Source: a phage | Assembly: GCA_014435945.1 (NCBI GenBank) | Contig: GCA_014435945.1_4088.1 | Length of the DNA: 64,000 nt | Strand: one strand, 5' to 3' | In this document: in pieces, positions 8,809-63,780 of the stretch | Layout: the number at the start of each line of letters is the position of its first letter | Numbering within the stretch: position 1 is the first letter of the stretch | The notes under the pieces: generated by a model | Databases searched by the model: none | The model's input: only the letters and a program-made list of their open reading frames with translations | What the model was told of the DNA's origin: nothing | Translations under genes and position numbers: made by a program

Positions 8809-8925
8809 TTTTTGGGACAACACTGAAAAGCATGATATAATGTATATTATCGGCAGATGTAAAAATGCAAACCATTCCTCAATGATGAGGGTTTTTCATA
8901 AAAAAGAAATAAAAGGGTATTAAAA

Positions 8926-9135
8926 ATGGCTAAAGAAACTAACGCACAAGTACTAGATATCACCGACTTCGACCGCACTGTGAACTACATTCAGTTCCAG
9001 ATTCATCAAGCTGAAGAAGCTCTCGCAGTATTCCACGGTACTGGTGCAAGGCCAATCCGTTTTGCTCATCTAATTGCATGGAAGAAAAGTCTACAAGAAG
9101 AACTTTCTGAACTGCGTAAAGCAAACCGTAAGTAA
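8926..9135 (+). CDS. hypothetical protein
   Basis: 69 aa ORF between promoter-like -10 and terminator. Confidence 0.5.
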   Translation: MAKETNAQVLDITDFDRTVNYIQFQIHQAEEALAVFHGTGARPIRFAHLIAWKKSLQEELSELRKANRK

Positions 9136-23432: not shown

Positions 23433-24590
23433 TTATGCGTTATAACCAACAATGACTACAGTACAGCCAAATGGTTCAACAACTTTTAATACAACATTAT
23501 CATCTGCATCGAGTTCAACTTCACTTAGTACAACGTGATTGTCTTCAGCATAGACTTGAACTTGTGGGAGGATTTTACCATGTTCACTAGCAGGGATTGA
23601 CAGTGTATACATGGAATCACCATCAACTACCCAATCACTATCGGTATACGTATTGTGATATGGAGTGGTGTGTAAGGTTTTACCAATAATACTCAATGAG
23701 ATTGGAGCGTCATCGGTTTGGTACACAGTGATATTACCGCTAGGATCTACAATGAGGTCTACTCCAATTTGGAATAAATCACCACTGTATGCTTGTAGAG
23801 CAAGATACTCACCACGCTCATGCACAGTAGCTGGCACAGTTGCCATATACATGCCATCGGACGTGTACTCAAACTGCGATAGAAGTACTGAAGTAACGAA
23901 GTCAATATCTTCGCCGCTTTCTAGTATATCAAATTCAATAGTTTTGGTATTATATATGTCAGAAGTGAGGATGATGGTTCCTTTACCGGATTGAGTAATT
24001 GGATCAACTGGAATACTAAAAACATCATCAATTATTTCAGTTGTGAAGTACTCGGTTCCGTCAGGAAGTATAACGGTAATACGCATTCCAGTTGTATCAA
24101 TGACTGAACCTGCGTTGAATAGGCGACCACCTACCAAATCATCACCTACGAACGTTGGGAACATAAGGATGTTGTCTATATCTCTATCTATAATCCCGCA
24201 TTCAGGGGTGTACATATTATATAGTGTTTGTGAACTACCTAGAATTGTTTTGTGCAAAAGAAACTTATAAACAAACCCAGTAGGATCTGATTCAAGTTTA
24301 GCATCTGAGTATCCTCTTACGAAAAAAGAGTTCTTTCTTATTTCACTTAGGATTTGGTCATTAGTTTTGTTGTAGTTTAATTGATATCCTTGTATATCCT
24401 TTGTTGTAATTTGTACTTTACGATAAATTACATTACTTACAGGATCAAGTAAATCATATAATCTATGGCTTCTCTGACGATAGATTCGAACATTTTTGAG
24501 TTTAGTCCCATCGTTGAGAATTGCACCATCGACTACATAACCACATTCACCGAACTTATATCGTCCAGCAGCAGCAATCGATCTTGACAT
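23433..24590 (-). CDS. hypothetical protein (isolated minus-strand gene)
   Basis: 385 aa ORF with GGAGGG RBS; convergent with flanking plus-strand genes. Confidence 0.6.
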   Translation of the reverse strand: MSRSIAAAGRYKFGECGYVVDGAILNDGTKLKNVRIYRQRSHRLYDLLDPVSNVIYRKVQITTKDIQGYQLNYNKTNDQILSEIRKNSFFVRGYSDAKLESDPTGFVYKFLLHKTILGSSQTLYNMYTPECGIIDRDIDNILMFPTFVGDDLVGGRLFNAGSVIDTTGMRITVILPDGTEYFTTEIIDDVFSIPVDPITQSGKGTIILTSDIYNTKTIEFDILESGEDIDFVTSVLLSQFEYTSDGMYMATVPATVHERGEYLALQAYSGDLFQIGVDLIVDPSGNITVYQTDDAPISLSIIGKTLHTTPYHNTYTDSDWVVDGDSMYTLSIPASEHGKILPQVQVYAEDNHVVLSEVELDADDNVVLKVVEPFGCTVVIVGYNA

Positions 24591-27350: not shown

Positions 27351-27772
27351 GGGGATACAATAAGATTTGTATTTTTGTATTTTTAGTTTGTGCAATCAAT
27401 ACATTTGGATATTACTGTACTGAAAACAACATTTCATATGGTTTAAATCCTTTGTGGTTTACAATTGCCAATGTAGCACAAATTGGTATTGCTGTTATGT
27501 CTGCACTTATGTTCTGTCCAATTGTCACTATGGATACTGATCATGAAAGGCTTGGATTTATCCGTGATACTGGAGACGAACCTTACAGTAGATTGATTGT
27601 GTTGTATCCATTTATTGTTATTTTAGGTACTAACATCCAACTTGGGTCTTTATCTAATAGTGTTACTTCAGCAGCCATTACAGTCTTTGCATTCACATTT
27701 TTTATGGTACACAAATCAGTACTCAAATGGCACATCACAAAAATGGCAGAGAAAGGTACGGAAAACAGTTGA
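27347..27772 (+). CDS. integral membrane protein
   Basis: 141 aa; hydrophobic helices. Confidence 0.5.
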   Translation: MRGYNKICIFVFLVCAINTFGYYCTENNISYGLNPLWFTIANVAQIGIAVMSALMFCPIVTMDTDHERLGFIRDTGDEPYSRLIVLYPFIVILGTNIQLGSLSNSVTSAAITVFAFTFFMVHKSVLKWHITKMAEKGTENS

Positions 27773-27831
27773 CGTGAGTTATTGAGAGATATATAATTAT
27801 TACATCAAAACTGGGAAATGGTAAGGAACTT

Positions 27832-28083
27832 ATGAACATCGATAAGGTCAAAGAACTTAGTGAAGCACTAATTAAGAACGAAGAAGCTTGTGAAGAACTT
27901 CGCAGTACTATCAAAGTTGAGTACGCACGTCTTCAAGCTATGCTTCAGGAATCCGAATGGGTAGTAACTAAATCTATCGAAGCAATCTATAAGGATATCG
28001 AATCCCTTTTCAACAAGAAAAGTAAGATTGAATCTGATTCATACAATAAGCGTAAAGAATTAAATTCGGCACTCGGTATCTAA
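27832..28083 (+). CDS. hypothetical coiled-coil protein
   Basis: 83 aa. Confidence 0.5.
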   Translation: MNIDKVKELSEALIKNEEACEELRSTIKVEYARLQAMLQESEWVVTKSIEAIYKDIESLFNKKSKIESDSYNKRKELNSALGI

Positions 28084-28157
28084 AAGTATTTGACTTAACC
28101 AATGACATGGAGTACATTGTACTCCTACTTTATTCAAAAGCCTAAAAGGAAAACATT

Positions 28158-28418
28158 ATGAAATCTATTCTCGTTGCTGTAAACCTGGTTGCTTCTCCAT
28201 CTTTCAACTTCAAACAAGTTGTTGCTGATAACCTGAAGAACATTTGCCCTAACGCTGAATTGACTTTCTGTGTGTTTGATTCAGAAAAAGTAACTAAAGT
28301 TGATCTAAACTATCTTTTGAACGAAGTACAAAGTATTTCTGGTGAAAGTAATTTGGAAGTACTGAATACGGTTGCTGATGACTATGATGATACACTGGTA
28401 ATTTCGGAGAAATTCTAA
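28158..28418 (+). CDS. hypothetical protein
   Basis: 86 aa. Confidence 0.5.
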   Translation: MKSILVAVNLVASPSFNFKQVVADNLKNICPNAELTFCVFDSEKVTKVDLNYLLNEVQSISGESNLEVLNTVADDYDDTLVISEKF

Positions 28419-28423
28419 ATCCA

Positions 28424-28843
28424 ATGCTTAGATTTATACATTACTTAATCAGTAAGTTCTTTGGTTATTATACTATTGAAGGTAAAGCTACGCTTGCACA
28501 TAAAATCTTTGTAGCATTATGTGTGGGTGATTATGACGTATTGAATAAGTACTGTAAATCTAAAGCATGTATTGACATAATGGCACTTCGTATCTATGAG
28601 TGTCAGTTCAATAGATATAATTTTTACCAGTACAGATATGATAAAGATGATTTTGATAGCATTAAAATGCTAAAGAATTTATGTAATAATAAAAAGAATA
28701 TGCATATATCTGAATTTGTTGCATTGTATTTTTATTTAAAAAGTTCATTATACATGAATACACTTAAACGCTTCGATCCTGGAATTAATGTATTCAACGA
28801 TAAAGAATTTTATATCTATGATAAATTTTTAGATAAGGTTTAA
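28424..28843 (+). CDS. hypothetical protein
   Basis: 139 aa. Confidence 0.5.
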   Translation: MLRFIHYLISKFFGYYTIEGKATLAHKIFVALCVGDYDVLNKYCKSKACIDIMALRIYECQFNRYNFYQYRYDKDDFDSIKMLKNLCNNKKNMHISEFVALYFYLKSSLYMNTLKRFDPGINVFNDKEFYIYDKFLDKV

Positions 28844-28844
28844 T

Positions 28845-29342
28845 ATGACGACTGTTTATATTGATAAACGCTTGGGAGTATTACTTACTGATTCAAAAGT
28901 GACATCAACTGAGCAACGTTCATTTTTGAACCTATTCCCGTTGAAGCCAAAACTTAGTTATGGTGTAGTTTCACAAAAAACATTGTATGTACACGACCGA
29001 CTGTTTAGTGCTTGCGGTGAGGTTAGTGAAATTAACAAAGTACTGAGATACTTGATTTCACAAGAGACTGTGATACCAGACCGCAAGGCGAGTTGTCACT
29101 GTGTTCTTGTGTCAAAAGATTACATCATTCACTTAATCGTTAATAAGGGTAAGTTTACCAAGAAGATTGATTATCTCCATAATGATTATACATTCTTTAT
29201 GGGTAGTGGTGGTGAATACATGCTTGATGCAGCAGTACATGAAGAGTGTAATACTCTTCTTGATAAGGTATTTGATACCTTCATGGATGTTCATAACCAT
29301 GATATCTATACCGATGATAATATTAATGTATACCGTTTTTGA
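28845..29342 (+). CDS. hypothetical protein
   Basis: 165 aa. Confidence 0.5.
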   Translation: MTTVYIDKRLGVLLTDSKVTSTEQRSFLNLFPLKPKLSYGVVSQKTLYVHDRLFSACGEVSEINKVLRYLISQETVIPDRKASCHCVLVSKDYIIHLIVNKGKFTKKIDYLHNDYTFFMGSGGEYMLDAAVHEECNTLLDKVFDTFMDVHNHDIYTDDNINVYRF

Positions 29343-29364
29343 TTTCATTCATTAGGAGAAGTAA

Positions 29365-30330
29365 GTGAAAAAGCTTGATTTAAATGCAATTTCTGAAGAA
29401 GTACTGGATGAGTGTTTTGCTAGTGAAGAAGTCAACGTATTAGAGGCTCTTGATTCCGTCGAAGAAGAAGAACATGACGGTCACAAGTTTGAGAAACCAA
29501 AAACAGGTATCAGCTTAACTCGCCCTAAAGGGATAACGAATGAAATGCTCATCCAAGCAGTGCGTGATGGCATAGACGTTGAAAAGAACATTGACCTTTT
29601 GGTTCGCTACAACTATCCAATGGTAGTAAGTGTTGCACGTAAGTGTACATGTTTTATCCCATTTGAAGATAAGATTTCTTATGGTGTTGAAGGTTTAATG
29701 CGAGCAATTCATACGTTCGACACTACCAAAAATGTTAAGTTCATTACATATGCAACAACAACTGTGTACATGACAATCTATAACGAAAGTGCAGATGCTA
29801 ATTATCTAGTGCATTTCCCACGTTATATGAGTGTTAATAACATTTATGTGAAACGCTGTGTAGAAGAGTATCAAATGAAACATGGTAAATACCCAACTCC
29901 TGAGATGGTGTCAAAAGAGACTGGTATTGAGATTCAACACGTTAAGAATTGTCTAACTTACAATAACACTTATGTAGCATTGAATATGAAAATGAGTAAT
30001 GATTCAGAAAGTACATTATCTGACATTGTTACTTCAGTTGAACCTGATTACAACTTAGGCGTAGAAACTGTCAGTACCCCACTGGTACAAAGTATTGCAG
30101 AAATGATGAGTAACCTATCTGCCAAAGACCGTGAATTGATTGAACGTGTACATGGTATTGGTTCTTATTCTGAACCAGAAACGCTACGAGAAATCATTGA
30201 GAGTGGTTTTGAAGATGAGAAGGGTAAGGTCATGACTGCTCGTTCTTCATTGCACCGTAAGTACTCTGAAGCAATGGAACGACTGCGTAAGATGGTTAAG
30301 ACAAAAGGTTATGAGTTCGAAGATTTTTAA
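29365..30330 (+). CDS. sigma-70 family RNA polymerase sigma factor (phage-encoded)
   Basis: Region-2-like YGVEGLMRAIHTFDTTKNVKFITYATTTVYMTI; region-4-like C-terminal helix-turn-helix; GTG start after AGGAG. Confidence 0.65.
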   Translation: MKKLDLNAISEEVLDECFASEEVNVLEALDSVEEEEHDGHKFEKPKTGISLTRPKGITNEMLIQAVRDGIDVEKNIDLLVRYNYPMVVSVARKCTCFIPFEDKISYGVEGLMRAIHTFDTTKNVKFITYATTTVYMTIYNESADANYLVHFPRYMSVNNIYVKRCVEEYQMKHGKYPTPEMVSKETGIEIQHVKNCLTYNNTYVALNMKMSNDSESTLSDIVTSVEPDYNLGVETVSTPLVQSIAEMMSNLSAKDRELIERVHGIGSYSEPETLREIIESGFEDEKGKVMTARSSLHRKYSEAMERLRKMVKTKGYEFEDF

Positions 30331-30337
30331 GATTAAA

Positions 30338-30364
30338 GGGTTGACTTCTGTCAGCCCTTTTTTT
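30338..30364 (+). terminator. intrinsic terminator (cassette variant without -10)
   Basis: GGGTTGAC-TTCT-GTCAGCCC followed by TTTTTTT. Confidence 0.7.
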
Positions 30365-30898
30365 ATGGGACAAATTTATTAATGGTGATACAATGATCTA
30401 TGTACAATCACAATGACAGTACTGGTACTGACAATCTTCCCCTACTTCACTTGAAAATGTAAAGGATAGATGAGCTTTTCATTGTAGCGAACAGCAAAAG
30501 AAACCCGTTAGATGTGGGCATAGTTTGAACCCCTCACGGCAATGCGGCTGTATAAAGAACCACGTTAGGATAGCTGGTGGTTCCTCGATAGACATATAAG
30601 GATAACACCTTACGAATTATCTAAGGGAGAGTTATCGAATTTTGTACAGGAAAGTTGCGTCCAAAATTTGAGTACTCACATTAAGTATTTGATTGCATAG
30701 ATACTTAATGAAGATACACTATGTTTAAAAGTGTAGACCGTCATATGAAACTGAAGTAGAGAGAAACAGGATGACCCGCTTTCGCACTCATTATGAGTAA
30801 TCTTCAATGCAATAGCTCTGATACCATCAGCGTCAAATTCCCCTCCATGTGGGGGGAAGAAAAATCCCTTCCTCAAATCCCGTCAATATTAAAAGTCC

Positions 30899-30927
30899 TT
30901 GACAGTTATGATTCATTCGCGTAGAAT
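30899..30927 (+). promoter_or_regulatory. sigma70-like promoter
   Basis: TTGACA, 17 bp, TAGAAT. Confidence 0.5.
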
Positions 30928-30991
30928 ACGTAGTATTAGAAGCGAACAGACATCTCGAAGAGATGGATGATTAACCACTAAGGAATATCTA

Positions 30992-31201
30992 ATGAATTCA
31001 GTAATCTTTTTAATTATTGCTCTTTCACCACAATCTGGTGTACAAATCACCCCAATGAATTCAATGAATCAATGCATTGCAGTACGTGACAGTACGTATG
31101 AACAAGTAAACAGCGTTTCACTTAGAACAGTTGGTGAAGAATTAATGTGGTGTTACAATAGCAATACTAAAGAGAAACTAATTGTTGGACAAACTAAATG
31201 A
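30992..31201 (+). CDS. small secreted/membrane protein
   Basis: 69 aa; hydrophobic N-terminus. Confidence 0.45.
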   Translation: MNSVIFLIIALSPQSGVQITPMNSMNQCIAVRDSTYEQVNSVSLRTVGEELMWCYNSNTKEKLIVGQTK

Positions 31202-31425
31202 GTTATGGTGTTCGTTTTGAGATTCGTTCTATTGTTATCAATGATGAGAAACAAGCATCGTTGGATGGCGATATACGAGAACTATATCTATCATGTATCC
31301 GTGCAAAATCTGAAGCAGATGCATTATCACAAATGATTGGTTTTAATTTCTTTCATGGATACTATTTGGTACGAGTTATCGAAGTTAAAAAAGTCACTTT
31401 TGAGTGTCTTGCAGGAGAAATATAA
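31198..31425 (+). CDS. hypothetical protein
   Basis: 75 aa; ATGA overlap. Confidence 0.45.
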   Translation: MSYGVRFEIRSIVINDEKQASLDGDIRELYLSCIRAKSEADALSQMIGFNFFHGYYLVRVIEVKKVTFECLAGEI

Positions 31426-31426
31426 A

Positions 31427-32221
31427 ATGAGCACTATAGATGAATTGATTCGCCGGAATTCAAAATACTACGACCCATCAGAAATTGTTGGCAACATTAC
31501 TAAATCTGAGTTCGGCCCAAATACTCGAAAACTCATTCATGTAATGTCACGTGATGGCTTTAAATGTGATTGTTGTGGTGAATCCAATGTGGTATTCACT
31601 TTACATAAACACAGTACTAAAGACCGTTATAAATTCAGACCTTATGTACTTAAAGGGAAACGCCTTGTACGCATGACGTTAGACCATAATGTACTGGACT
31701 GTCTTCAGGGCGGTAATGATAAAGAGAACATGACTGCACTGTGTGAAGATTGTAACGCATTACGCCAGCATAAGTTCGCTGAGTACAGTGAGTTTAAACA
31801 CTGGTATCATAACGCTGATCGTTCTATCGAGCCTGACGTTAACTACTGCTTTATTGAGTATATTAAGAATGCTAAAGATACATACATTCTTAAATCAATG
31901 TCACCTATTACAGTGTTCCCTGAGAATCTATTCAGTACTATGCAGCGTGATTTTAAACGTGGTATCATGAATGCATTCAAACACTTAGACAAAGGTATCA
32001 AGCACTTTGAGGTGCAATGCTTAAATGAAGGAATGAATCGTTTAGTACAAATTTACATGAAATCATTTATAGGTGTTGACACCGCACGTCTACCAGTATA
32101 TAATTACTTCATTGAAAGCGAAGAAGGTGAATCACTTCGTGATTATGGTGAAAGATTTAATAATAAAGTTTTCACTGCAATCGCAAACGAGATTCATTAC
32201 TATAAACCGTATGTAATTTAA
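31427..32221 (+). CDS. HNH endonuclease domain protein
   Basis: CDCCGES...LDHNVLDCLQGGNDKENMTALCEDCNALRQH (zinc-knuckle HNH motif); ATG 31427 after AGGAG. Confidence 0.7.
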   Translation: MSTIDELIRRNSKYYDPSEIVGNITKSEFGPNTRKLIHVMSRDGFKCDCCGESNVVFTLHKHSTKDRYKFRPYVLKGKRLVRMTLDHNVLDCLQGGNDKENMTALCEDCNALRQHKFAEYSEFKHWYHNADRSIEPDVNYCFIEYIKNAKDTYILKSMSPITVFPENLFSTMQRDFKRGIMNAFKHLDKGIKHFEVQCLNEGMNRLVQIYMKSFIGVDTARLPVYNYFIESEEGESLRDYGERFNNKVFTAIANEIHYYKPYVI

Positions 32222-38273: not shown

Positions 38274-38465
38274 ATGTTGATTTATCAATGTGATAACATT
38301 CGTGTTATGCAGCATCCCTACTTACAAATCTTTGATGTGCAGCAGTATATGGAAGGTGATGACCCAAGAACCTATGGTCGTAAGTATGATTACTTCACTG
38401 TAAAGCAGTGTCGTAACATCAAAGAAGTACGACAATTAGTTCAAGAACTTCAAAATAAAGGTTGA
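38274..38465 (+). CDS. hypothetical protein
   Basis: ATG after GAGGA RBS; stop codon inside downstream TTGACT. Confidence 0.45.
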   Translation: MLIYQCDNIRVMQHPYLQIFDVQQYMEGDDPRTYGRKYDYFTVKQCRNIKEVRQLVQELQNKG

Positions 38466-38491
38466 CTTCGGTCAGCCTTTTTTGTTATAAT
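38457..38491 (+). promoter_or_regulatory. terminator-promoter cassette
   Basis: AAAGGTTGAC-TTCG-GTCAGCCTTT hairpin with T-run; TTGACT ... TATAAT. Confidence 0.65.
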
Positions 38492-41550: not shown

Positions 41551-41661
41551 TTTGACTTTGGGACAACCATTTCTTACGTGATATAATCTTAAGTGTCTGT
41601 AGAAATAAACAGCACATGAAGTATAAATATTAAAGTAATTTATCTCTTTAAGGAGTATGAA

Positions 41662-42045
41662 ATGGTTGATAAATGGAATAAGAAAGATCCATCGCATGAT
41701 GTGGATATTTCTGGAATTGATAATGCACATAAGCATAAGTATCTTGATTCACTAGGTCTACTAAAGCCTGACCAAAGTCTTGCACATGATCGTCCTTCAC
41801 GTGAAAAAGCTTTCAGTCTAGAATCACTAGGCCATGAATTGAATCGTGTATTTGAAGATCATCCAATTTATGTACGTGATATCATTGAGAAACTTAAAGT
41901 GACTCCTAAAGAGCACTTCAAGGCAACAGTACACGCAGCATTCCGTGCACTACATGAAGCACTAAAGAAAACTCATAACCTTCGCAAGATTCATGATGAC
42001 ATCGTGAACTCTATTGAAGGCGAAAAACATAAGTTTAAAAAATAA
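41662..42045 (+). CDS. hypothetical basic protein; shares SLGLL motif with 42893 gene
   Basis: KYLDSLGLLKPDQ motif; AAGGAG RBS. Confidence 0.55.
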   Translation: MVDKWNKKDPSHDVDISGIDNAHKHKYLDSLGLLKPDQSLAHDRPSREKAFSLESLGHELNRVFEDHPIYVRDIIEKLKVTPKEHFKATVHAAFRALHEALKKTHNLRKIHDDIVNSIEGEKHKFKK

Positions 42046-54728: not shown

Positions 54729-54764
54729 AAAAATCCAGTACTATTATAGTACTGGATTAATTTT
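54729..54764. terminator. bidirectional terminator at strand switch
   Basis: Perfect 10-bp stem ATCCAGTACT/AGTACTGGAT with A-run and T-run flanks, between convergent genes. Confidence 0.7.
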
Positions 54765-55887
54765 AATTATCTAAGCCACCAATTACACTGAACTGTGTGG
54801 TAACGTCTGAACTATTATCTATGTAAGTTCTTCTACCAACATAATATAGTTGTCCTTTTGCTTGTATAAAAGTTACTGTCCCTGTATTGAATGTTATAAT
54901 ATCATTGTATGTAATGTCAGGTGGTAGTGCTGCTGATAACGCAGTAACTTTACTTAATGCAGCACTAGTACTACCATTTATACCAGCAGCAATACTACCA
55001 GTACCATAGAACTTATTATCTTTACCAATGAATACGTTGGCTGATGCTTGTGTAGCTGATGTTATTGCCTTACCAATTTGGAATGCGGTTCCTATGGTGT
55101 ATGGTGTGCTCCTGGCTGCGTCTATGCTTTGTGTATATCCATCCCCTAGCTGACCATTAACTTTGTCACCACATGAGTATAGAGTACCATTGAGGCTGTA
55201 TATGATCCCACGGTTAGAGAAGCTAACAGCTTCTGCATTAGTCCATACTGGTGCGGTGTATGAGTTTACACGACTAGCGGTAGTTCCTAGACCTAGTATA
55301 CCATATGTGTTATCACCACATCCAAACCATTGCCCAGAACTGTTTTGATAGAACACTGAACGTTCTGTTGATTCCATGCGTACAGCATCCACAGCACCAC
55401 TTTTAACGAACGAAGTGGATGAGGATGTAGTACCAGTACCCAATGCACCATAAGTGTTTGTACCAATCGCATAGATTGATCCTAGTGGTGTCATAACACG
55501 TATGCAGTTATATCCCAATTGAACTTTACATTCAAATAGGTTGTCCCATATTTCAGGAACAGCAGAAAATAAATTTGTAATTTCGAACCATGATGTTGTC
55601 GAACCAGTTAATCCTATACTGCTTTTGTTTCCTAAAATGAAAACAGTTTTGTCCTTCTTAATTATCCATGATGATAGGAAACCTATCTCACAGCTATGAA
55701 CATTTGATTCTATTTGGGTAATATAATACTTAACTGTGTTATCACCCATGAATGCCGCAGCACCGGATGCAAAAAGGTTTCCAGTTTGTTTATTTAAAAT
55801 GTAGTTATTGTTTCCATATACTCTAACATCATAAGAACTTTCTTGTTTTTCGTTCCCATAATCAAATAACAATACGAAAGGTAACAT
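54763..55887 (-). CDS. RCC1-like repeat (beta-propeller) protein, MLPF family paralog A
   Basis: N-terminus MLPFVLLFDYGN; Gly-rich repeats YGALGTGTT, YGILGLGTT, NGQLGDGYT. Confidence 0.65.
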   Translation of the reverse strand: MLPFVLLFDYGNEKQESSYDVRVYGNNNYILNKQTGNLFASGAAAFMGDNTVKYYITQIESNVHSCEIGFLSSWIIKKDKTVFILGNKSSIGLTGSTTSWFEITNLFSAVPEIWDNLFECKVQLGYNCIRVMTPLGSIYAIGTNTYGALGTGTTSSSTSFVKSGAVDAVRMESTERSVFYQNSSGQWFGCGDNTYGILGLGTTASRVNSYTAPVWTNAEAVSFSNRGIIYSLNGTLYSCGDKVNGQLGDGYTQSIDAARSTPYTIGTAFQIGKAITSATQASANVFIGKDNKFYGTGSIAAGINGSTSAALSKVTALSAALPPDITYNDIITFNTGTVTFIQAKGQLYYVGRRTYIDNSSDVTTQFSVIGGLDN

Positions 55888-55964
55888 GATAAAATCTCCT
55901 TGTGTTATACTTTATTTAATCATTTTATAATGTACAATTTTACAGCGATTTAATTGAGGTACTC

Positions 55965-56615
55965 ATGAATAAAAGAAGTAAGTTCTATCAAGAATATTTC
56001 ACTAAACAGAAACGATTCACAAAAAAATACTTTACATCATCCCACCGACCAGTTGCAAGTTACAAACGTCCTAATACTAACTATCTTACTGGTGGCAAGT
56101 TTAGTGCAAAGTTCGAATTACTTATGCGTGAAAAGAATATCAAGATGCATTACGCAGAGACGAGAAAAAACTCATCAATTATTTGCTCTGATTTTCTTGA
56201 GTACGGTTGCTTAACTTATAAATTCAACGATGTATATTTGTATATTGATGTTGATTGTAACAGTACTCGTATGTTTGAGATTTCAATTCACCCAAATCAC
56301 AACCGTTATATAAACATTAACTTGGTTGATAAAGTACTGATTGGTATATCTAGTACTGATGGTGGTGGATTTGAATTTATTGCTTCAAAATATGATGAAG
56401 ATTTCGTACTTTACCCAGTACTTGATGATGTGAAAGATATTCTCAATTCATTAAAAGGAAGTCAATACAAATTATCTGAAGAACAGCTATTCCAGTACTC
56501 ACTTATTCATGATGATATCGAGATATACTTAGAGTGTGCGAGAATCTTGGAGTATCTTTATAATGAACTAACAACAACTGGTAAAGTGACTGCATTCACA
56601 TTATATAATATGTAA
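55965..56615 (+). CDS. hypothetical protein, FQxS-module family, embedded in minus-strand array
   Basis: 216 aa; C-terminal EEQLFQYSLIHDDIEIYLE. Confidence 0.55.
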   Translation: MNKRSKFYQEYFTKQKRFTKKYFTSSHRPVASYKRPNTNYLTGGKFSAKFELLMREKNIKMHYAETRKNSSIICSDFLEYGCLTYKFNDVYLYIDVDCNSTRMFEISIHPNHNRYININLVDKVLIGISSTDGGGFEFIASKYDEDFVLYPVLDDVKDILNSLKGSQYKLSEEQLFQYSLIHDDIEIYLECARILEYLYNELTTTGKVTAFTLYNM

Positions 56616-56646
56616 AAGAAAAGCCAGTACATAGTACTGGCATTAT
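56614..56646. terminator. bidirectional terminator hairpin
   Basis: GCCAGTAC-ATA-GTACTGGC flanked by A-run and T-rich tract. Confidence 0.65.
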
Positions 56647-56647
56647 A

Positions 56648-57784
56648 TTAAACTGGTGGAGAATTATATGGCTCAAATTTATAAGTTGTCGTAGCAGTAC
56701 CAGCAATGGCGTTGTTAGCTAGTATGTACATAGTCCTGTAGTCGATTACCACCACAGTAATACTACCACCAAAAGCATAGTCTGTTATGTTATTAGTGTT
56801 GAATGGTAAATTAGATGAACTGGTCCATGTATTAGCTGTTGTGCTATTTGTACCATTGGAATAGCCGACACTAGATGCACCAGTTGTCCATAAGTTTCCA
56901 TCATTGAACAACGATACATGGTTAGCTGTATATGATTTATTAGGTATAGAACTATCAATTGGTGTATTCCAAACTTTAGTAACCCATGTTGTAACTGCTG
57001 TATTATTAGTAACGCCATTACCTAATGAACCATTTATTGGTATACCTCTTATATAAGAAGTGTTAGTACTAGGGTCAACATATCCAAATGTATATGTATC
57101 AAATGCAAATTGAAAACAATCAGAACTCGGTAATGTGTACAGTAATGTATATGAAGACGTGTTTATTGATGAATTTGTACCGTTCACGCCTTGGTATAAA
57201 ATACCACTAGCCAATATTTGATTATTATTTTTTGTTATAGTGTTCATTGACGGATATGTTTTCACATCACGCACATCATTAGTCACATATGTTTGTGTTG
57301 ATAATGCAACATTACTACCATTACCTATAACTCCTGTATTTGCACCACTCCCATAAAGTGAACCATCATTCAAAAGAACCATTGTGACATTACCATTTCC
57401 CGTAATTGTTTTAATATTACTAACATCCACCGCAGCAAATACAGTTGATGTTAAATCAGTGAAACGTGTATAATGTGATGTTGTGCCATTGATTGGTGTC
57501 GCAAAACCAGAATACAAAATTCTATTTTCTTTGGTAATAAGGAATGTGCCAGTAACACCATTTGAATGGATATCAACAATATTATCGCCCATTAATACCC
57601 AATCACTTACGAATGTTGTTGTGCCAGTACCTAACCCATATGTAGTGTTGTAACCACGTCCATATACTCTACCATCACTGAGTAATGTTACCACACATTG
57701 ACCACCACCACCAAGTATAACTTTTTGTATAGTACTCTTTACTTTTATATTCCCGTACTTAACCATTCTTGCAAAAGGTAACAT
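56648..57784 (-). CDS. RCC1-like repeat protein, MLPF family paralog B
   Basis: MLPFARMVKYGNIKV; YGLGTGTT-type repeats. Confidence 0.65.
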   Translation of the reverse strand: MLPFARMVKYGNIKVKSTIQKVILGGGGQCVVTLLSDGRVYGRGYNTTYGLGTGTTTFVSDWVLMGDNIVDIHSNGVTGTFLITKENRILYSGFATPINGTTSHYTRFTDLTSTVFAAVDVSNIKTITGNGNVTMVLLNDGSLYGSGANTGVIGNGSNVALSTQTYVTNDVRDVKTYPSMNTITKNNNQILASGILYQGVNGTNSSINTSSYTLLYTLPSSDCFQFAFDTYTFGYVDPSTNTSYIRGIPINGSLGNGVTNNTAVTTWVTKVWNTPIDSSIPNKSYTANHVSLFNDGNLWTTGASSVGYSNGTNSTTANTWTSSSNLPFNTNNITDYAFGGSITVVVIDYRTMYILANNAIAGTATTTYKFEPYNSPPV

Positions 57785-57821
57785 AATTCCCTCCTTTATT
57801 CATTATACTATATTTAATCAA

Positions 57822-57856
57822 AAAAGAAAAGCCAGTACTCAAGTACTGGCATTATT
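57822..57856 (-). terminator. intrinsic terminator (minus strand)
   Basis: GCCAGTACT..AGTACTGGC hairpin, U-run on minus strand. Confidence 0.65.
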
Positions 57857-59017
57857 TTAAATTGGTGAATCTTCAACAAATATAGTACTAGCAGTACCAC
57901 CAGATACTAGGTTAGTACCACTTGAATATATTTTGTTTCCATCTGTCATATATGTTTTACCATAGCAACTTTGGATTTTAACATCATTGAAATTTAAATC
58001 AGGAGTAATAGACTTAGTGTAAGTTAATACGTTAGTAGTTGAACCTGTACTTAATTGTCCATAGTATGAAGTCGCTGAGTTATTACCAGCAACGTATACA
58101 CCTGTGTCAGTAATAACAAAGTTAGAGTAATATCCGTACCCATATCCTATATCTAATATATTTCCTTGTGGTTGATTTGCCACAACAGTTGTCAATATGT
58201 TGGTTGATGCTGCTGTATTAGTAGCAGTCTGTCCATATGATTGGTCACCACCAGTATACACAGTAACAACAGACGTACTTTTGTTTCTAGCAATACCTTG
58301 AACCATACCATTAACAGTACTTATAAATGCTATAGTACTAACAGTTGCTGGTAATCCATCTGATAATGCGAATACATTATAAAAACTCACGGTTGAAGTA
58401 CTGTTAGTATCACCTTTAACTTCACCTGTGTAATATAATCTACCACTTTCGGCAATAAATGAACACATGTTTATACCTGCAATAATCCTTTTCGGAACCG
58501 CACCACTTGGTATAATTGATTTTACTAATGTAGTAAAACTGTTAGAATAAGAAGCATTGCCAAGCTGTCCTCCTGTGTTATAACCACCACTCCAAATAGT
58601 TCCATTACTCATAAGTATTGAAATGAAGTTATTTCCTAATGATATTTCAGTAATTGTTCCTTGAGAATTAACTTGATTAATAAGAGTTTGCATAGAAGTC
58701 CATGCATTAACAGATGATGTACCCATACACACATTGTATTGTCGCCCTGTGTATTGATATGTACCATCTGATTTGTGAATCATTGTAGCATACTGACCAC
58801 ACCATACATCAATGACATCCGATGCAGTTACTGTCCATGATGTTCTGGTTGTATTGTCTCCTAAACCCAACTGACCACTTGAATTGGCACCACGGGTATA
58901 TAATTTACCATTATTACCCAATACCATAACCCAGTTATACCCTGCAACTAATTTTTTAATGGCAGCAGGGGATGGTGCAATGTTTCCGTAATCAAACATT
59001 CTAACAAAAGGTAACAT
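57857..59017 (-). CDS. RCC1-like repeat protein, MLPF family paralog C
   Basis: MLPFVRMFDYGNIAP; SGQLGLGD and GGQLGNASY repeats. Confidence 0.7.
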   Translation of the reverse strand: MLPFVRMFDYGNIAPSPAAIKKLVAGYNWVMVLGNNGKLYTRGANSSGQLGLGDNTTRTSWTVTASDVIDVWCGQYATMIHKSDGTYQYTGRQYNVCMGTSSVNAWTSMQTLINQVNSQGTITEISLGNNFISILMSNGTIWSGGYNTGGQLGNASYSNSFTTLVKSIIPSGAVPKRIIAGINMCSFIAESGRLYYTGEVKGDTNSTSTVSFYNVFALSDGLPATVSTIAFISTVNGMVQGIARNKSTSVVTVYTGGDQSYGQTATNTAASTNILTTVVANQPQGNILDIGYGYGYYSNFVITDTGVYVAGNNSATSYYGQLSTGSTTNVLTYTKSITPDLNFNDVKIQSCYGKTYMTDGNKIYSSGTNLVSGGTASTIFVEDSPI

Positions 59018-59029
59018 AATTATTCTCTC

Positions 59030-60148
59030 CTATATTACTATTTTTTCTTCAGTATATATTAATGCTTTATCTGAGGTAGTGTATCCAGGTAAAGGATACA
59101 ATCTACCTGCAACATAACATATGTCATTTTCTATATAATATGATGAATATGTACTGTCAAAGAATATAGGCTCTATTGAAGTTGGTGCATTGATCATCTT
59201 AGTAAATGCTGGAACCGGTCCAGGTGCAAAACTTGCATTTGTACTGGTAAACCCATAATTATCGGAAACTGCTGACGCATAATAATCGGTTCCATTCTGG
59301 ATTATTATTCTTGCTGCAACCGAACTACTATTATGAACGATTTTAGGAAATGCAAATGTAGCTGCATTATATGTGAATGGTAACGAACAAGAAACTAAAG
59401 TTGCAGTTGCACCAGACACTGATGTTCCATATGTATTGTTGACGTTTCCTCTGGCAAATACACCACTAGCTGTATTAAGCACTACAACAGCAACTGTTGC
59501 TGAATAACCCAAAACCCCTGTTGCAATTTGGGTAAACCCAGTGGAACTAGGTATTTGACTAGCGTTTGGGTTTCCAGAACCATAAAGAACCCCAGAATTA
59601 GTTAATGCCCATACGTTTGCATACATTAATTTGAATGACTTGACATCACTGACTATTGTATTTTTAACAAAAGATGTACTACTACTTGGTGTGCTCATTC
59701 CAAATATATATTGCGTATTCGTACCAATGAACCACAATTCTCCTAAATTTGTTAGCACACCTATACAGTTACGTAACACATTAACTTGAACATCAATTAT
59801 TGTACCAGTTATTGCATTAAAAATCGAACTACAATTAACAAATATATTACTTGTTGGATAACCAAATGCAGTAGTTACACCGCTACACATATACTGACCG
59901 TCTTTGAGTTTTAAAAATGTCCACGTAGGTGAATTGTAAAAGTCATCAACATTTTCATATATCAAAGTCCACTTATCAGCAGATGTAGTAACATCACCAA
60001 ACTGACCATTTGTATTTGGTCCAGTAGCATATAATTTCCCACTTGTTGTTAGTAATAAAACTCCATTACTACCATCCGTGACCAATTTGCGTATTTTCGT
60101 AACTTCTCTTACATTCCCGAACTTAACCATTCTTGCAAAAGGTAACAT
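59030..60148 (-). CDS. MLPF family paralog D (beta-propeller-like)
   Basis: MLPFARMVKFGNV; NGQFGD repeat. Confidence 0.65.
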   Translation of the reverse strand: MLPFARMVKFGNVREVTKIRKLVTDGSNGVLLLTTSGKLYATGPNTNGQFGDVTTSADKWTLIYENVDDFYNSPTWTFLKLKDGQYMCSGVTTAFGYPTSNIFVNCSSIFNAITGTIIDVQVNVLRNCIGVLTNLGELWFIGTNTQYIFGMSTPSSSTSFVKNTIVSDVKSFKLMYANVWALTNSGVLYGSGNPNASQIPSSTGFTQIATGVLGYSATVAVVVLNTASGVFARGNVNNTYGTSVSGATATLVSCSLPFTYNAATFAFPKIVHNSSSVAARIIIQNGTDYYASAVSDNYGFTSTNASFAPGPVPAFTKMINAPTSIEPIFFDSTYSSYYIENDICYVAGRLYPLPGYTTSDKALIYTEEKIVI

Positions 60149-60157
60149 ATTTCCCTC

Positions 60158-61315
60158 CTAATTTATATTCAATTTGATTTCTGTGTAGTTCATCAGTTTT
60201 GGATTATTACCTGGAAAATAAGTTAAAGAATCATCATTAAAAGGCCCACTACCAAATACTTTCCCATCAGAGTTTATAAGAGTTGTATAATTACTTGCAC
60301 TAACAACTGTCTCAATATTACCATCCACTGAACTGAAATCCTGTAATGTAAAGTTTGAACCAGCACCTGGCACAGTTGGGTTGGTGAATCCCATTCTGTT
60401 AGTACTACTGCTATTTGCACCAACACCATAATGAACGACTGAATTGGAAATCCACACACTGACGGTCGCTGTCTGTTCATCTGTTAGAATCTTAAATGTA
60501 CTTACATCATAAGAAAACGGCAATGTAATCTTGCTATTAATTGCACGCTGTTCTGCACTGAATGAATAACCATATCTGTTCGACGATAAACCACGGAAAT
60601 ATAAACCATCACTTTTTGTGTATAACAATTCACCATTTAAACCATTACCGTAGATATTAAGTATAGCAGTATCACCAAGGTTCGTAAATGTAGTCACATC
60701 AGTATTACCACTAATAAACTGATAATTACCACAGAACCACGCTGTATTATCATTCTTAAGAGCCACTATAGTCTCATAAGAACAACTTACAAAATTCCTG
60801 CAATTGGTGTTTATCTTCGTAAATGTTCCTAAACTATTACTTTTGCCTAACCCCAATTGACCACGGTTTCCATATCCAATACCATATAAATCACCATCAG
60901 TGTTTAATGCATATACTGTGTACGAAGCATTATTCCTTCTGGTAAAATCAATCTTCTTGATAGTTCCTAATGCAGAGAACGTAGAACTAACATCAATATA
61001 ATTCAATCCTGAACTACCACCCAGTACTGTAGAGTCGCCAGCAGCAAGATAACGTCCATCAGACATTATTAATAATGTACATCTGGGATGACATATCATA
61101 TCCGATACACCCTGCATTACCATCTGCGGAACTCCCCCACTAATCTCACTAGAACTACCACTACCAAATCTCCAGTTGGTGTTTTGACCATATGCATACA
61201 CGTCACCTGTATTCGTCAATATCATCTGACTAGTACCGAAAGAGTTTATCTTCTTAATCCCAGCAGGTACTGGTGCAATATTCCCGTACTTAACCATTCT
61301 TGCAAAAGGTAACAT
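60158..61315 (-). CDS. RCC1-like repeat protein, MLPF family paralog E
   Basis: MLPFARMVKYGNIAP; RGQLGLGK repeat. Confidence 0.7.
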   Translation of the reverse strand: MLPFARMVKYGNIAPVPAGIKKINSFGTSQMILTNTGDVYAYGQNTNWRFGSGSSSEISGGVPQMVMQGVSDMICHPRCTLLIMSDGRYLAAGDSTVLGGSSGLNYIDVSSTFSALGTIKKIDFTRRNNASYTVYALNTDGDLYGIGYGNRGQLGLGKSNSLGTFTKINTNCRNFVSCSYETIVALKNDNTAWFCGNYQFISGNTDVTTFTNLGDTAILNIYGNGLNGELLYTKSDGLYFRGLSSNRYGYSFSAEQRAINSKITLPFSYDVSTFKILTDEQTATVSVWISNSVVHYGVGANSSSTNRMGFTNPTVPGAGSNFTLQDFSSVDGNIETVVSASNYTTLINSDGKVFGSGPFNDDSLTYFPGNNPKLMNYTEIKLNIN

Positions 61316-61324
61316 ATTTCCCTC

Positions 61325-62500: not shown

Positions 62501-62540
62501 ATTTCCCTCCTTTATTCATTATACTATATTTAATACAAAT

Positions 62541-62570
62541 AAGAAAGCCAGTATCAAGTACTGGCCTATA
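62541..62570 (-). terminator. intrinsic terminator (minus strand)
   Basis: GCCAGTA-TCAAG-TACTGGC hairpin. Confidence 0.6.
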
Positions 62571-62571
62571 T

Positions 62572-63741: not shown

Positions 63742-63780
63742 ATTTCCTCCTTTATTCATTATACTATATTTAATCAAAAA

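What the first reader, a model, noticed from the sequence alone, without database searches (positions are those of the whole stretch)
29365..30330. Phage-encoded sigma-70-family protein
The 321-aa product has a region-2-like segment (...EGLMRAIHTFDTTKNVKFITYATTTVYMTI) and a region-4-like C-terminal helix-turn-helix. Many promoters in the window have near-consensus host-type -35/-10 boxes, so this sigma factor would be expected to recognise a different promoter class (possibly middle or late genes).
Basis: partly seen in the sequence, partly recalled or inferred. Interest (0 to 1): 0.5.

Follow-up and report, generated by a model that had tools for sequence, protein, structure and literature searches.

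The report
Jumbo-phage sigma factor for middle genes
The ORF is a real, already annotated sigma-70-family protein of a Rak2-like E. coli jumbo phage, and it most likely redirects the host RNA polymerase from host-type early promoters to a phage-specific promoter class (GRGACA-N16-TGnTATAAT) that drives replication genes, the late sigma gene, a tRNA and a family of unannotated structured RNAs.

Summary
ORF 29365-30330 (+, GTG start, AGGAG ribosome-binding site) encodes a 321-aa sigma-70-family protein. Pfam regions 2 and 3 score above their cut-offs, and the closest solved structures are E. coli sigmaS and mycobacterial SigA/SigB. It is 98-99% identical to "RNA polymerase sigma factor" genes annotated in fEgEco12-like Asteriusvirus jumbo phages, so its identity is already known.

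Three points go beyond the annotation.

- **Family hallmarks.** About 19 clusters at 50% identity, all from Rak2-like jumbo phages, have lost the tryptophan dyad of region 2.3 and carry a ~9-aa insertion in the region 4.2 helix-turn-helix. The insertion explains the missing Pfam region-4 hit.
- **A matching promoter class.** GRGACA-N16-TGnTATAAT occurs 4 times in the window (0.00 expected) and 17 times in fEgEco12 (0.27 expected), always on the + strand. It precedes replication genes, the gp55-like late sigma gene, tRNA-Arg and a conserved structured RNA.
- **Co-variation.** The -35 hexamer differs between phage genera in step with the sigma's recognition helix.

The likely cascade is host sigma70, then this sigma (middle genes), then the gp55-like sigma (late genes). 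The assignment is inferred, not shown. No experimental study of this sigma was found.

The parts
27769..27797 (+). Host sigma70-type promoter-like site (TTGACG-17-TATAAT, 11/12) upstream of the co-oriented gene block that ends with the sigma gene
28090..28118 (+). Second host-type promoter-like site (TTGACT-17-TACATT). The orthologous site in fEgEco12 is TTGACT-17-TACAAT. It is the probable proximal promoter of the four-gene unit 28158-30330.
28158..29342 (+). Three small genes upstream of sigma on the same strand, with no strong terminator between them: 86 aa, 139 aa, and a 165-aa HslV-like peptidase homologue
   Evidence: PHROG 1040 'peptidase HslV family', 2.7e-6
29354..29358 (+). Ribosome-binding site AGGAG, 6 nt before the GTG start
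29365..30330 (+). Sigma-70-family protein gene, 321 aa
29365..29514 (+). Acidic N-terminal region (aa 1-50, 15 D/E against 5 K/R). It is conserved in the family (MKKLDLN..EEVLDECF) and predicted with low confidence.
29599..29787 (+). Region 2 (aa 79-141). F126, T128, Y129 and A130 are kept. The W433/W434 equivalents are T132/T133, and the R436, Q437 and T440 equivalents are Y135, M136 and Y139.
29848..30036 (+). Region 3 (aa 162-224)
30082..30309 (+). Region 4 domain (aa 240-315): region 4.1 plus a helix-turn-helix
30196..30222 (+). Family-specific ~9-aa insertion (I278-K286, IESGFEDEK) in the turn of the region 4.2 HTH. It is predicted as a beta-hairpin.
30241..30288 (+). Recognition helix R293-R308 (RSSLHRKY...). 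R293 corresponds to sigma70 R584, S294 to E585, H297 to R588 and R298 to Q589.
30335..30360 (+). Intrinsic terminator ending the sigma transcription unit (11-bp stem, then a T run)
30367..30394 (+). Class-ii (putative phage-sigma) promoter GGGACA-N13-TGATACAAT, directly after the sigma terminator
30436..30675 (+). Core of a conserved structured non-coding RNA, one of 4 paralogues per genome, apparently transcribed from the promoter at 30367
8814..8841 (+). Class-ii promoter GGGACA-N13-TGATATAAT, upstream of ORF 8926-9135
14028..14055 (+). Class-ii promoter ending 9 nt before tRNA-Arg(TCT) at 14065-14138
41560..41587 (+). Class-ii promoter upstream of ORF 41662-42045, the orthologue of fEgEco12 g551 'virion structural protein'

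Best explanation
The gene encodes a phage sigma factor of the sigma-70 family. It is made early, as the last gene of a unit transcribed from host sigma70-type promoters and closed by a strong terminator.

The protein is proposed to bind host core RNA polymerase in place of sigma70. It would then direct the enzyme to a phage-specific 'middle' promoter class: a -35-like hexamer GRGACA, a fixed 16-bp spacer, and an extended -10 element TGnTATAAT.

In this model the altered recognition helix of region 4.2 (RSSLHRKY instead of RERIRQIE) reads the changed -35 box. That helix lies next to the family-specific hairpin insertion. The conserved -11A pocket residues (F126, Y129 and neighbours) still read a TATAAT-type -10.

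The inferred regulon includes DNA replication genes, the gp55-like late sigma gene, at least one tRNA and a multi-copy structured RNA. This gives a cascade: host sigma70 (early), then this sigma (middle), then the gp55-like sigma (late).

Shown here: the protein family and architecture, the existence and statistics of the promoter class, and the genes that follow it. Inferred: that this sigma reads these promoters, when it does so, and that it binds core polymerase.
For: **Protein identity**
- Pfam regions 2 and 3 score above their cut-offs. NCBIfam's best matches are RpoD_Cterm, SigB and RpoS. PHROG 351 matches at 3.9e-48.
- PDB matches are Mtb SigB at 3.6e-17 and RpoS over aa 79-319. The Foldseek top hit is E. 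coli sigmaS 5ipl_F at 2e-10.

**Expression context**
- Host-type promoters lie at 27769 and 28090, and a terminator at 30335-30360.

**Changed specificity determinants**
- The alignment with RpoD and RpoS shows sigma70 positions E585, R588 and Q589 replaced by S, H and R, plus a 9-aa insertion in the HTH turn.
- Both features are found in all 19 family representatives. They are absent from the nearest cellular sigmas.

**Promoter class**
- G[GA]GACA-N16-TA[TC]AAT occurs 17 times in 345 kb of fEgEco12. All sites are on the + strand and all have a 16-bp spacer, against 0.27 expected.
- With the TGn element added, the window has 4 sites against 0.00 expected.
- The sites precede the clamp, gp32, primase, exonuclease and topoisomerase II genes.
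- One site lies about 60 nt upstream of the probable true start of the gp55-like gene. PHROG 12791 'sigma factor for late transcription' (1.4e-152) aligns only from aa 36 of the annotated product.

**Co-variation of the -35 box with the recognition helix**

| Phage lineage | Recognition helix | -35 box |
|---|---|---|
| Window/fEgEco12, 121Q-like | R-S-S-[LI]-H-R-K-Y | GRGACA |
| fENko-Kae01/Munch | R-T-S-L-H-R-C-Y | GRGACA, spacer 17 |
| RaK2 | R-G-T-L-H-Y-K-F | TGAACR |
| CBB, Yen9-04 | K-A-T-L-S-R-R-Y | GAAACR |

- The fENko-Kae01/Munch sigma is only 36% identical overall to the window protein and is closer to CBB's (45%). It still shares the window's helix type and -35 box.
- Each -35 variant is enriched only in its own lineage.
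- These phages infect closely related hosts. Their sigma70 region 4.2 is conserved, which I take from general knowledge.

**Literature**
- The CBB paper independently predicted a divergent RpoD-like promoter (TGAAACG plus TATA) before DNA-synthesis genes and the gp55-like gene (PMC5259590).
Against: - No transcriptomic or biochemical data exist for this sigma in any Rak2-like phage.
- The -10 element is the host consensus with an extended TG. Host sigma70 could therefore use these promoters without a good -35 box.
- The sigma has lost the tryptophan dyad and the Q437 and T440 equivalents, yet the proposed -10 is canonical. That is not what one would naively predict.
- The relation between helix and -35 box is not a simple one-to-one code. 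RaK2 keeps R...H in the helix but has A at the third -35 position.
- Only six lineages were sampled, with 3 to 17 sites each.
- Another phage-encoded DNA-binding factor could co-vary in the same way.
- The core-binding motif of region 2.2 (DLIQEG) is changed to DKISYG, so binding to host core polymerase is assumed rather than evident.
Confidence: 0.6

Rival explanations
1. The GRGACA-N16-TGnTATAAT sites are ordinary extended -10 promoters read by host sigma70. The phage sigma serves a different, still unidentified promoter set, or only a handful of genes.
For: - The -10 element with TG is a textbook sigma70 extended -10, and the -35 box matches TTGACA at 4 of 6 positions.
- The sigma lacks the tryptophan dyad and the Q437 and T440 equivalents that read a sigma70-type -12/-11 junction.
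Against: - A -35 box that sigma70 does not need would not stay invariant at four positions with a fixed spacer.
- It would also not switch to a different, equally strict hexamer in each phage genus while the hosts' sigma70 stays the same.
- K-mer analysis of upstream regions found no further over-represented class beyond the TTGACA, GRGACA and TAAATA types.
Confidence: 0.15
2. The lineage-specific -35-like box is bound by another phage protein, such as a MotA-like activator or sigma-appropriation partner working with host sigma70. The phage sigma would not be its reader.
For: - T4, a distant relative, activates middle promoters in this way (general knowledge).
- Iyer et al. report AsiA homologues in some group 2 jumbo phages (PMC7824862).
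- An HTH protein gene lies next to the sigma gene in CBB.
Against: - The box sits at the canonical sigma4 position with sigma70-like geometry and keeps the ..ACA core of TTGACA.
- Recognition-helix type predicts the box across lineages, including one case that goes against overall sequence relatedness.
- None of the four genes upstream of sigma has an HTH family hit.
- The genome was not searched systematically for MotA or AsiA homologues.
Confidence: 0.12
3. The protein acts mainly as a competitor for core polymerase, shutting off the host by displacing sigma70, and has no dedicated promoter set of its own.
For: - It is expressed from early host-type promoters.
- It has an acidic N-terminus reminiscent of the autoinhibitory region 1.1.
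Against: - The DNA-reading parts are conserved across the family: the -11A pocket residues, the recognition helix and region 3.
- A pure decoy would not need them.
Confidence: 0.05

Closest known systems
Annotated orthologues: fEgEco12 g519, 121Q gp167, RaK2 ORF244, CBB_513 (PHROG 351); the 'RpoD-like sigma of group 2 jumbo phages' of Iyer et al. 2021
   Same: It is the same gene in the same genomic position. Identity is 98-99% to the fEgEco12, WPEC3 and BF17 proteins, 59% to 121Q, 39% to RaK2 and 37% to CBB.
   Different: Nothing differs in kind. The published work stops at annotation and the general statement that the factor probably redirects host polymerase.
E. coli sigmaS / sigma70 and mycobacterial SigA/SigB (group 1-2 sigma factors)
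   Same: - It has the same region 2, 3 and 4 architecture and the best sequence and fold matches.
- Region 4.1 and the -11A pocket residues are conserved.
- The proposed promoter has a -35 box, a sigma70-like spacer and a TATAAT -10.
   Different: - There is no region 1.2 match, and it scores far below the RpoD and RpoS equivalog cut-offs.
- The tryptophan dyad is replaced by TT.
- DLIQEG is changed to DKISYG.
- A conserved CTC motif sits in region 2.1.
- A 9-aa hairpin is inserted in the 4.2 HTH.
- The -35-reading residues are changed.
Bacillus phage SPO1 gp28 (phage sigma for middle genes)
   Same: The proposed logic is the same. An early phage gene product replaces the host's primary sigma on host core polymerase and switches on middle genes, which include the late-transcription factor genes (general knowledge; PMC13401047 abstract).
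   Different: No sequence relationship was tested. SPO1's middle promoters differ in both the -35 and the -10 element, whereas here only the -35 box departs from the host consensus.
T4 transcription programme (MotA/AsiA for middle, gp55/gp33/gp45 for late)
   Same: The phage is T4-related in its replication and late modules. A gp55-like late sigma lies next to gp47/46-like genes, and TAAATA late-type motifs are present.
   Different: T4 has no RpoD-like sigma and turns on middle genes by remodelling host sigma70. This phage appears to use a sigma of its own for that step.

Membership tests
Sigma-70 family | Region 2 (core binding and -10 recognition domain) | tested here: met
   Pfam Sigma70_r2 matches aa 79-141 at 37.1 bits, cut-off 24. 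All 23 sequences of A5 match it.
Sigma-70 family | Region 3 | tested here: met
   Pfam Sigma70_r3 matches aa 162-224 at 44 bits, cut-off 25.3.
Sigma-70 family | Region 4 (4.1 plus the 4.2 helix-turn-helix) | tested here: met
   There is no Pfam r4 hit for this protein. However:
- The family C-terminal profile hits sigma4 of solved sigmas at E 1.9e-4, over 4.1 and the first HTH helix.
- 8 of the 23 sequences of A5, four of which are cellular sigmas, hit Pfam r4.
- AF2 predicts confident helices at 240-249, 253-263, 274-279 and 293-314.
- The alignment breaks at a 9-aa insertion.
Sigma-70 family | Binds core RNA polymerase and confers promoter-specific initiation | not testable with these tools
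   This needs biochemistry. The region 2.2 motif DLIQEG is only partly kept (DKISYG).
Group 1/2 (RpoD / RpoS type) sigma factors | Region 1.2 | tested here: not met
   This protein has no Pfam Sigma70_r1_2 hit. Only 3 sequences of A5 match it.
Group 1/2 (RpoD / RpoS type) sigma factors | Tryptophan dyad (W433/W434) and Q437/T440 in regions 2.3-2.4 | tested here: not met
   The equivalents are T132/T133, M136 and Y139. The dyad is lost in all 19 family representatives and kept in the nearest cellular sigmas.
Group 1/2 (RpoD / RpoS type) sigma factors | Score above the NCBIfam RpoD or RpoS equivalog cut-offs | tested here: not met
   RpoD_Cterm scores 96.1 bits against a cut-off of 354. rpoS_proteo scores 80.9 against 378.7.
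T4 gp55-type late sigma | Homology to gp55 (PHROG 'sigma factor for late transcription') | tested here: not met
   The window protein hits only PHROG 351. A different gene, fEgEco12 g336, hits PHROG 12791 at 1.4e-152.
Rak2-like jumbo-phage RpoD-like sigma clade (PHROG 351 subset) | Full-length homology, loss of the W dyad, insertion in the 4.2 HTH turn, and a CTC-IPF-DK motif | tested here: met
   Fifteen representatives score E<=1e-30 among 1.84 billion proteins, with a clear gap to cellular sigmas. All the hallmarks are present. tblastn finds the clade only in Rak2-like phages.

The most novel reading that the evidence does not exclude
This protein represents a distinct sub-family of sigma-70 factors. 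It has no tryptophan dyad, a hairpin insertion in the region 4.2 helix-turn-helix and an altered core-binding motif.

It would be the middle-gene sigma of Rak2-like jumbo phages. It would read GRGACA-N16-TGnTATAAT in Asteriusvirus and genus-specific -35 variants elsewhere.

Its regulon would contain the gp55-like late sigma, tRNAs and a 3-5-copy structured RNA of unknown function. That amounts to an SPO1-style sigma cascade joined to a T4-style late system, with a natural set of helix and -35 specificity variants.
Probability: 0.5. Interest if true: 0.55.

Novelty: already known. Interest (0 to 1): 0.35.

Why it matters
The gene itself is a routine annotation. What would matter is the transcription programme of the largest coliphages, which is unstudied. 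A defined sigma-promoter pair would give a testable temporal map for about 350-kb genomes.

The genus-specific -35 variants, paired with small changes in one helix, form a natural experiment on how sigma region 4.2 reads DNA. An orthogonal sigma-promoter pair that works on E. coli core polymerase would also be a useful tool.

The same promoter class points to an unannotated, conserved, multi-copy structured RNA.

Tried and rejected
- **CBB -35 motif.** The published CBB motif TGAAACG was sought in the window. It gave no bipartite match and no enrichment (7 sites against 8.2 expected). The motif is genus-specific, and the Asteriusvirus equivalent is GRGACA.
- **Generic promoter scan.** The scan showed no overall excess (89 sites against 90.1 expected). 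Only the near-perfect matches are informative.
- **RpoS-like N-terminus.** An apparent similarity of the acidic N-terminus to that of RpoS, seen in MAFFT alignments, is not significant (BLASTP E 0.21). The idea of a recent capture of rpoS was dropped.
- **Neighbouring genes.** Pfam found nothing in the four genes upstream of sigma or in the gp55-like protein.
- **Rfam.** No family matched the non-coding region at E<=0.3.
- **PA5oct paper.** The omics paper gave no information on the sigma or on a non-host promoter class.
- **Other papers.** The Sharanji and fEgEco12 papers and the 2026 review only restate the annotation.
- **Not done.** There was no systematic search of the genome for MotA or AsiA homologues. 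The last 29.7 kb of the fEgEco12 record were not fetched.

Full report
**What the window is**

The window is AT-rich (32-38% G+C). Most of its genes are small and lie on the + strand, and it holds 7 tRNA genes. The stretch 28000-32000 is 98% identical to Escherichia phage fEgEco12 and its relatives, and about 84% identical to the 121Q/PBECO4 group. These are Asteriusvirus 'Rak2-like' jumbo myoviruses of about 350-380 kb. In fEgEco12 the ORF in question is g519, annotated 'RNA polymerase sigma factor'.

**The observation**

ORF 29365-30330 (+) starts with GTG, 6 nt after an AGGAG, and encodes 321 aa.

- Pfam gives Sigma70_r2 at aa 79-141 and Sigma70_r3 at aa 162-224, both above their gathering scores. 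It gives no region 4 and no region 1.2.
- NCBIfam's best matches are RpoD_Cterm, SigB and RpoS, all far below their equivalog cut-offs.
- PHROG 351 'RNA polymerase sigma factor' matches at 3.9e-48.
- Against solved structures the best sequence matches are M. tuberculosis SigB (3.6e-17), SigA, and E. coli RpoS aligned over aa 79-319.
- An AlphaFold2 model built on 21 sequences is confident for three domains: sigma2 at about aa 50-145, sigma3 at 153-198 and sigma4 at 240-315. The N-terminal 50 residues and the 200-239 linker are not confident.
- Foldseek places E. coli sigmaS first, at 2e-10.

**Why region 4 is missed by Pfam**

Alignments with E. coli RpoD and RpoS show a ~9-aa insertion (I278-K286, IESGFEDEK) between the first HTH helix and the recognition helix of region 4.2. 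AlphaFold2 models the insertion as a hairpin.

A profile of the family's C-terminal 85 residues still finds sigma4 of solved sigma factors at E 1.9e-4, but the match ends at the insertion. Eight of the 23 sequences in alignment A5 match Pfam Sigma70_r4, and four of those 23 are cellular sigmas.

**Family and hallmarks**

A search of 1.84 billion representative proteins gives only 15 clusters at E<=1e-30. A gap follows before thousands of cellular sigmas at about 1e-19. tblastn against 50,697 phage records finds full-length relatives only in Rak2-like jumbo phages of Escherichia, Salmonella, Klebsiella, Cronobacter, Pectobacterium, Erwinia, Serratia, Yersinia and Xanthomonas. Identity falls in steps: 99, 87, 59, 39, 37, 34 and 31%.

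All 19 representatives share four features:
- loss of the W433/W434 dyad (TT in this protein);
- the HTH-turn insertion;
- a conserved C-T-C motif just before 'IPF.DK.QYG', which replaces sigma70's 'LQFLDLIQEG';
- a recognition helix of the type [RK]..[LI][HS]R[RK]Y.

The nearest cellular sigmas keep the tryptophan dyad and lack the insertion. Residues around the -11A pocket are kept (F126, T128, Y129, A130; D119 for E420; K for R423).

The sigma70 residues implicated in base-specific -35 contacts are R584, E585, R588 and Q589, which I take from general knowledge. Their equivalents here are R293, S294, H297 and R298.

The gene also diverges faster than its neighbours. Between the window and 121Q the sigma is 59% identical, while the two genes upstream are 88% and 74% identical.

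**Expression context**

The sigma gene is the last of a co-oriented block. Host-type promoter-like sites lie at 27769-27797 (TTGACG-17-TATAAT) and 28090-28118. The orthologous site of the latter in fEgEco12 is TTGACT-17-TACAAT. A strong intrinsic terminator follows at 30335-30360.

Perfect TTGACA-N16-TATAAT sites occur 5 times on the + strand of the window, against 0.02 expected. The gene sits in what the CBB authors called the early region (PMC5259590).

**Search for a cognate promoter**

I assembled 345 kb of the fEgEco12 record. I called ORFs crudely and examined 254 upstream regions. Three motif classes stand out:

1. **Host type.** TTGACA-N16/17-TATAAT has 37 exact sites, all on the + strand. 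They are concentrated at 1-50 kb and 267-330 kb.
2. **Late type.** TAAATA motifs, which resemble the T4 late promoter, precede structural genes and the minus-strand RCC1-like genes.
3. **A third class.** G[GA]GACA-N16-TA[TC]AAT is almost always preceded by TGn. It has 17 exact sites, all on the + strand and all with a 16-bp spacer, against 0.27 expected from Markov simulations. A weight matrix adds about 14 weaker sites, 31 of 32 on the + strand.

The exact sites of the third class precede the sliding clamp, gp32, primase, an exonuclease, topoisomerase II and other genes between 59 and 256 kb.

One site (190988-191015) lies 14 nt inside the annotated start of g336. That protein matches PHROG 12791 'sigma factor for late transcription' (1.4e-152) only from residue 36, and its gene sits next to gp47/46-like genes as gene 55 does in T4. 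The promoter is therefore probably upstream of the true start.

The window itself has four sites of this class, against 0.00 expected:
- 8814-8841;
- 14028-14055, which ends 9 nt before tRNA-Arg;
- 30367-30394, directly after the sigma terminator;
- 41560-41587.

**Linking the sigma to the promoter class**

The link is indirect. I compared 45-50-kb replication-gene regions of five other phages with their sigma sequences.

| Phage | Recognition helix | -35 box | Count on + / - strand |
|---|---|---|---|
| ELP-22 (121Q-like) | RSSIHRKY | GRGACA-N16 | 7 / 0 |
| fENko-Kae01 (sigma 99% identical to Munch) | RTSLHRCY | GRGACA, spacer 17 | not counted |
| RaK2 | RGTLHYKF | TGAACR | 7 / 1 |
| CBB | KATLSRRY | GAAACR | 5 / 0 |
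| Yen9-04 | KATLSRRY | GAAACR and GGAACA | 3 / 0 and 2 / 0 |

- The fENko-Kae01 sigma is 36% identical to the window's and 45% to CBB's, and its HTH insertion is 2 aa longer.
- The CBB box matches the published TGAAACG.
- Each variant is enriched only in its own lineage, with 0.05-0.5 expected.
- All lineages keep TGnTATAAT.
- The hosts are closely related Enterobacterales whose sigma70 region 4.2 is conserved, which I take from general knowledge.

A -35 box that changes with the phage's own recognition helix is most simply read by the phage sigma. In the fENko-Kae01 case it does so against overall sequence relatedness.

**Caveats**

- The -10 element is the host consensus with an extended TG, so sigma70 might use these promoters.
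- The loss of the tryptophan dyad sits oddly with a canonical -10.
- The correspondence between helix and box is not a clean code.
- Few lineages were sampled.
- A different phage factor could co-vary in the same way.
- No experimental work on this sigma was found.

**Verdict**

The finding is real and its interpretation is sound. The identity of the gene is already known from annotation and comparative papers (PMC7824862, PMC5259590, PMC13070987).

This analysis adds a concrete, testable candidate promoter and regulon, the family hallmarks, and a proposed three-step sigma cascade. I put about 0.6 on the middle-gene sigma model.

**Side observations**

Four further things were seen in the window and its relatives:
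- a conserved structured RNA downstream of the sigma gene;
- a strongly over-represented palindrome, CAGTACTG;
- cassettes in which a terminator hairpin also carries a promoter's -35 box;
- the array of RCC1-like genes on the minus strand.

They are described under things noticed in passing.

Noticed in passing
window 30395-30990 (core 30436-30675, + strand); paralogues in fEgEco12 at 59914, 110667, 195773 and 307153; CBB L013:22184-22391; Yen9-04 L018:45437-45640: The ~600-nt gap after the sigma gene holds a conserved structured RNA of about 200-240 nt.

- Each genome has 3-5 copies. blastn finds 62 phage records and 251 places, all in Rak2-like jumbo phages but not in the RaK2 regions examined.
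- Each examined copy lies 60-100 nt downstream of that genus's own class-ii promoter.
- On 8 sequences, all 32 predicted pairs are kept and 12 show compensatory changes. The covariation score is 0.386 against 0.150 for shuffles (0 of 500 reach it), and slid controls give at most 2 such pairs.
- There is no Rfam match.
- The copies are mostly unannotated. UE-S1 calls its copy a 'repeat_region', and some records place short hypothetical ORFs over it.

The function is unknown.
   Followed up: partly
window, 37 sites, e.g. 1252, 12001, 30417, 32739, 41542, 47530: The 8-bp palindrome CAGTACTG occurs 37 times in the window, against about 1 expected. fEgEco12 has 208 sites in 345 kb, spread over the whole genome and mostly inside ORFs. 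AGTACT alone occurs 924 times against about 118 expected.

In several early promoters the palindrome fills the spacer directly before TATAAT. Over-representation of a palindrome is unusual for a phage. The cause is unknown.
   Followed up: partly
window 38457-38491; also 30335-30360; fEgEco12 315243, 318855, 319615, 321877, 326501, 327084: A ~40-nt cassette recurs in which an intrinsic terminator hairpin (AAAGGGTTGACTTCGGTCAGCCCTTT) contains the TTGACT -35 hexamer of the next host-type promoter, with TATAAT 18 nt downstream.

The sigma gene's terminator is a copy of this hairpin, but it is followed by a class-ii promoter instead.
   Followed up: partly
window 54763-63759 (- strand) and 23433-24590 (- strand): Seven long paralogous ORFs (372-395 aa) lie in an array on the minus strand. 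Their fEgEco12 counterparts are annotated as RCC1-like 'chromosome condensation regulator' or 'DNA condensation' proteins.

Some of them are preceded by a hairpin-plus-T-run terminator and a T4-late-like TTAAATATAGTATAAT motif. The array is shorter than the corresponding fEgEco12 region (window 63950 maps to record 338000, not about 340666). The structural gene at 23433-24590 has ATAAATA upstream.
   Followed up: partly
window 28845-29342 (+): The gene immediately upstream of sigma, in the same transcription unit, is a 165-aa distant homologue of the HslV peptidase (PHROG 1040, 2.7e-6). fEgEco12 annotates it as HslV. Pfam gives no hit. The pairing with sigma is conserved in 121Q.
   Followed up: partly
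window 29365-30330 compared with 121Q (L016): The sigma protein is 59% identical between the fEgEco12-like and 121Q-like clades, while the two upstream proteins are 88% and 74% identical. The non-coding region downstream is 82% identical at the DNA level. The sigma therefore evolves faster than its surroundings, mostly in aa 31-60 and 200-250.
   Followed up: partly
window 14065-18038: The tRNA cluster holds three tandem tRNA-Thr(TGT) genes at 17805-18038 and a 92-nt tRNA-Ser with the unusual anticodon ACT at 16439-16530.
   Followed up: no
fEgEco12 record 190974-191912 (L009:40974-41912): The annotated start of the gp55-like late sigma gene g336 is probably about 35 codons too far upstream. 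The PHROG alignment begins at aa 36, and a class-ii promoter lies inside the annotated 5' end.
   Followed up: partly
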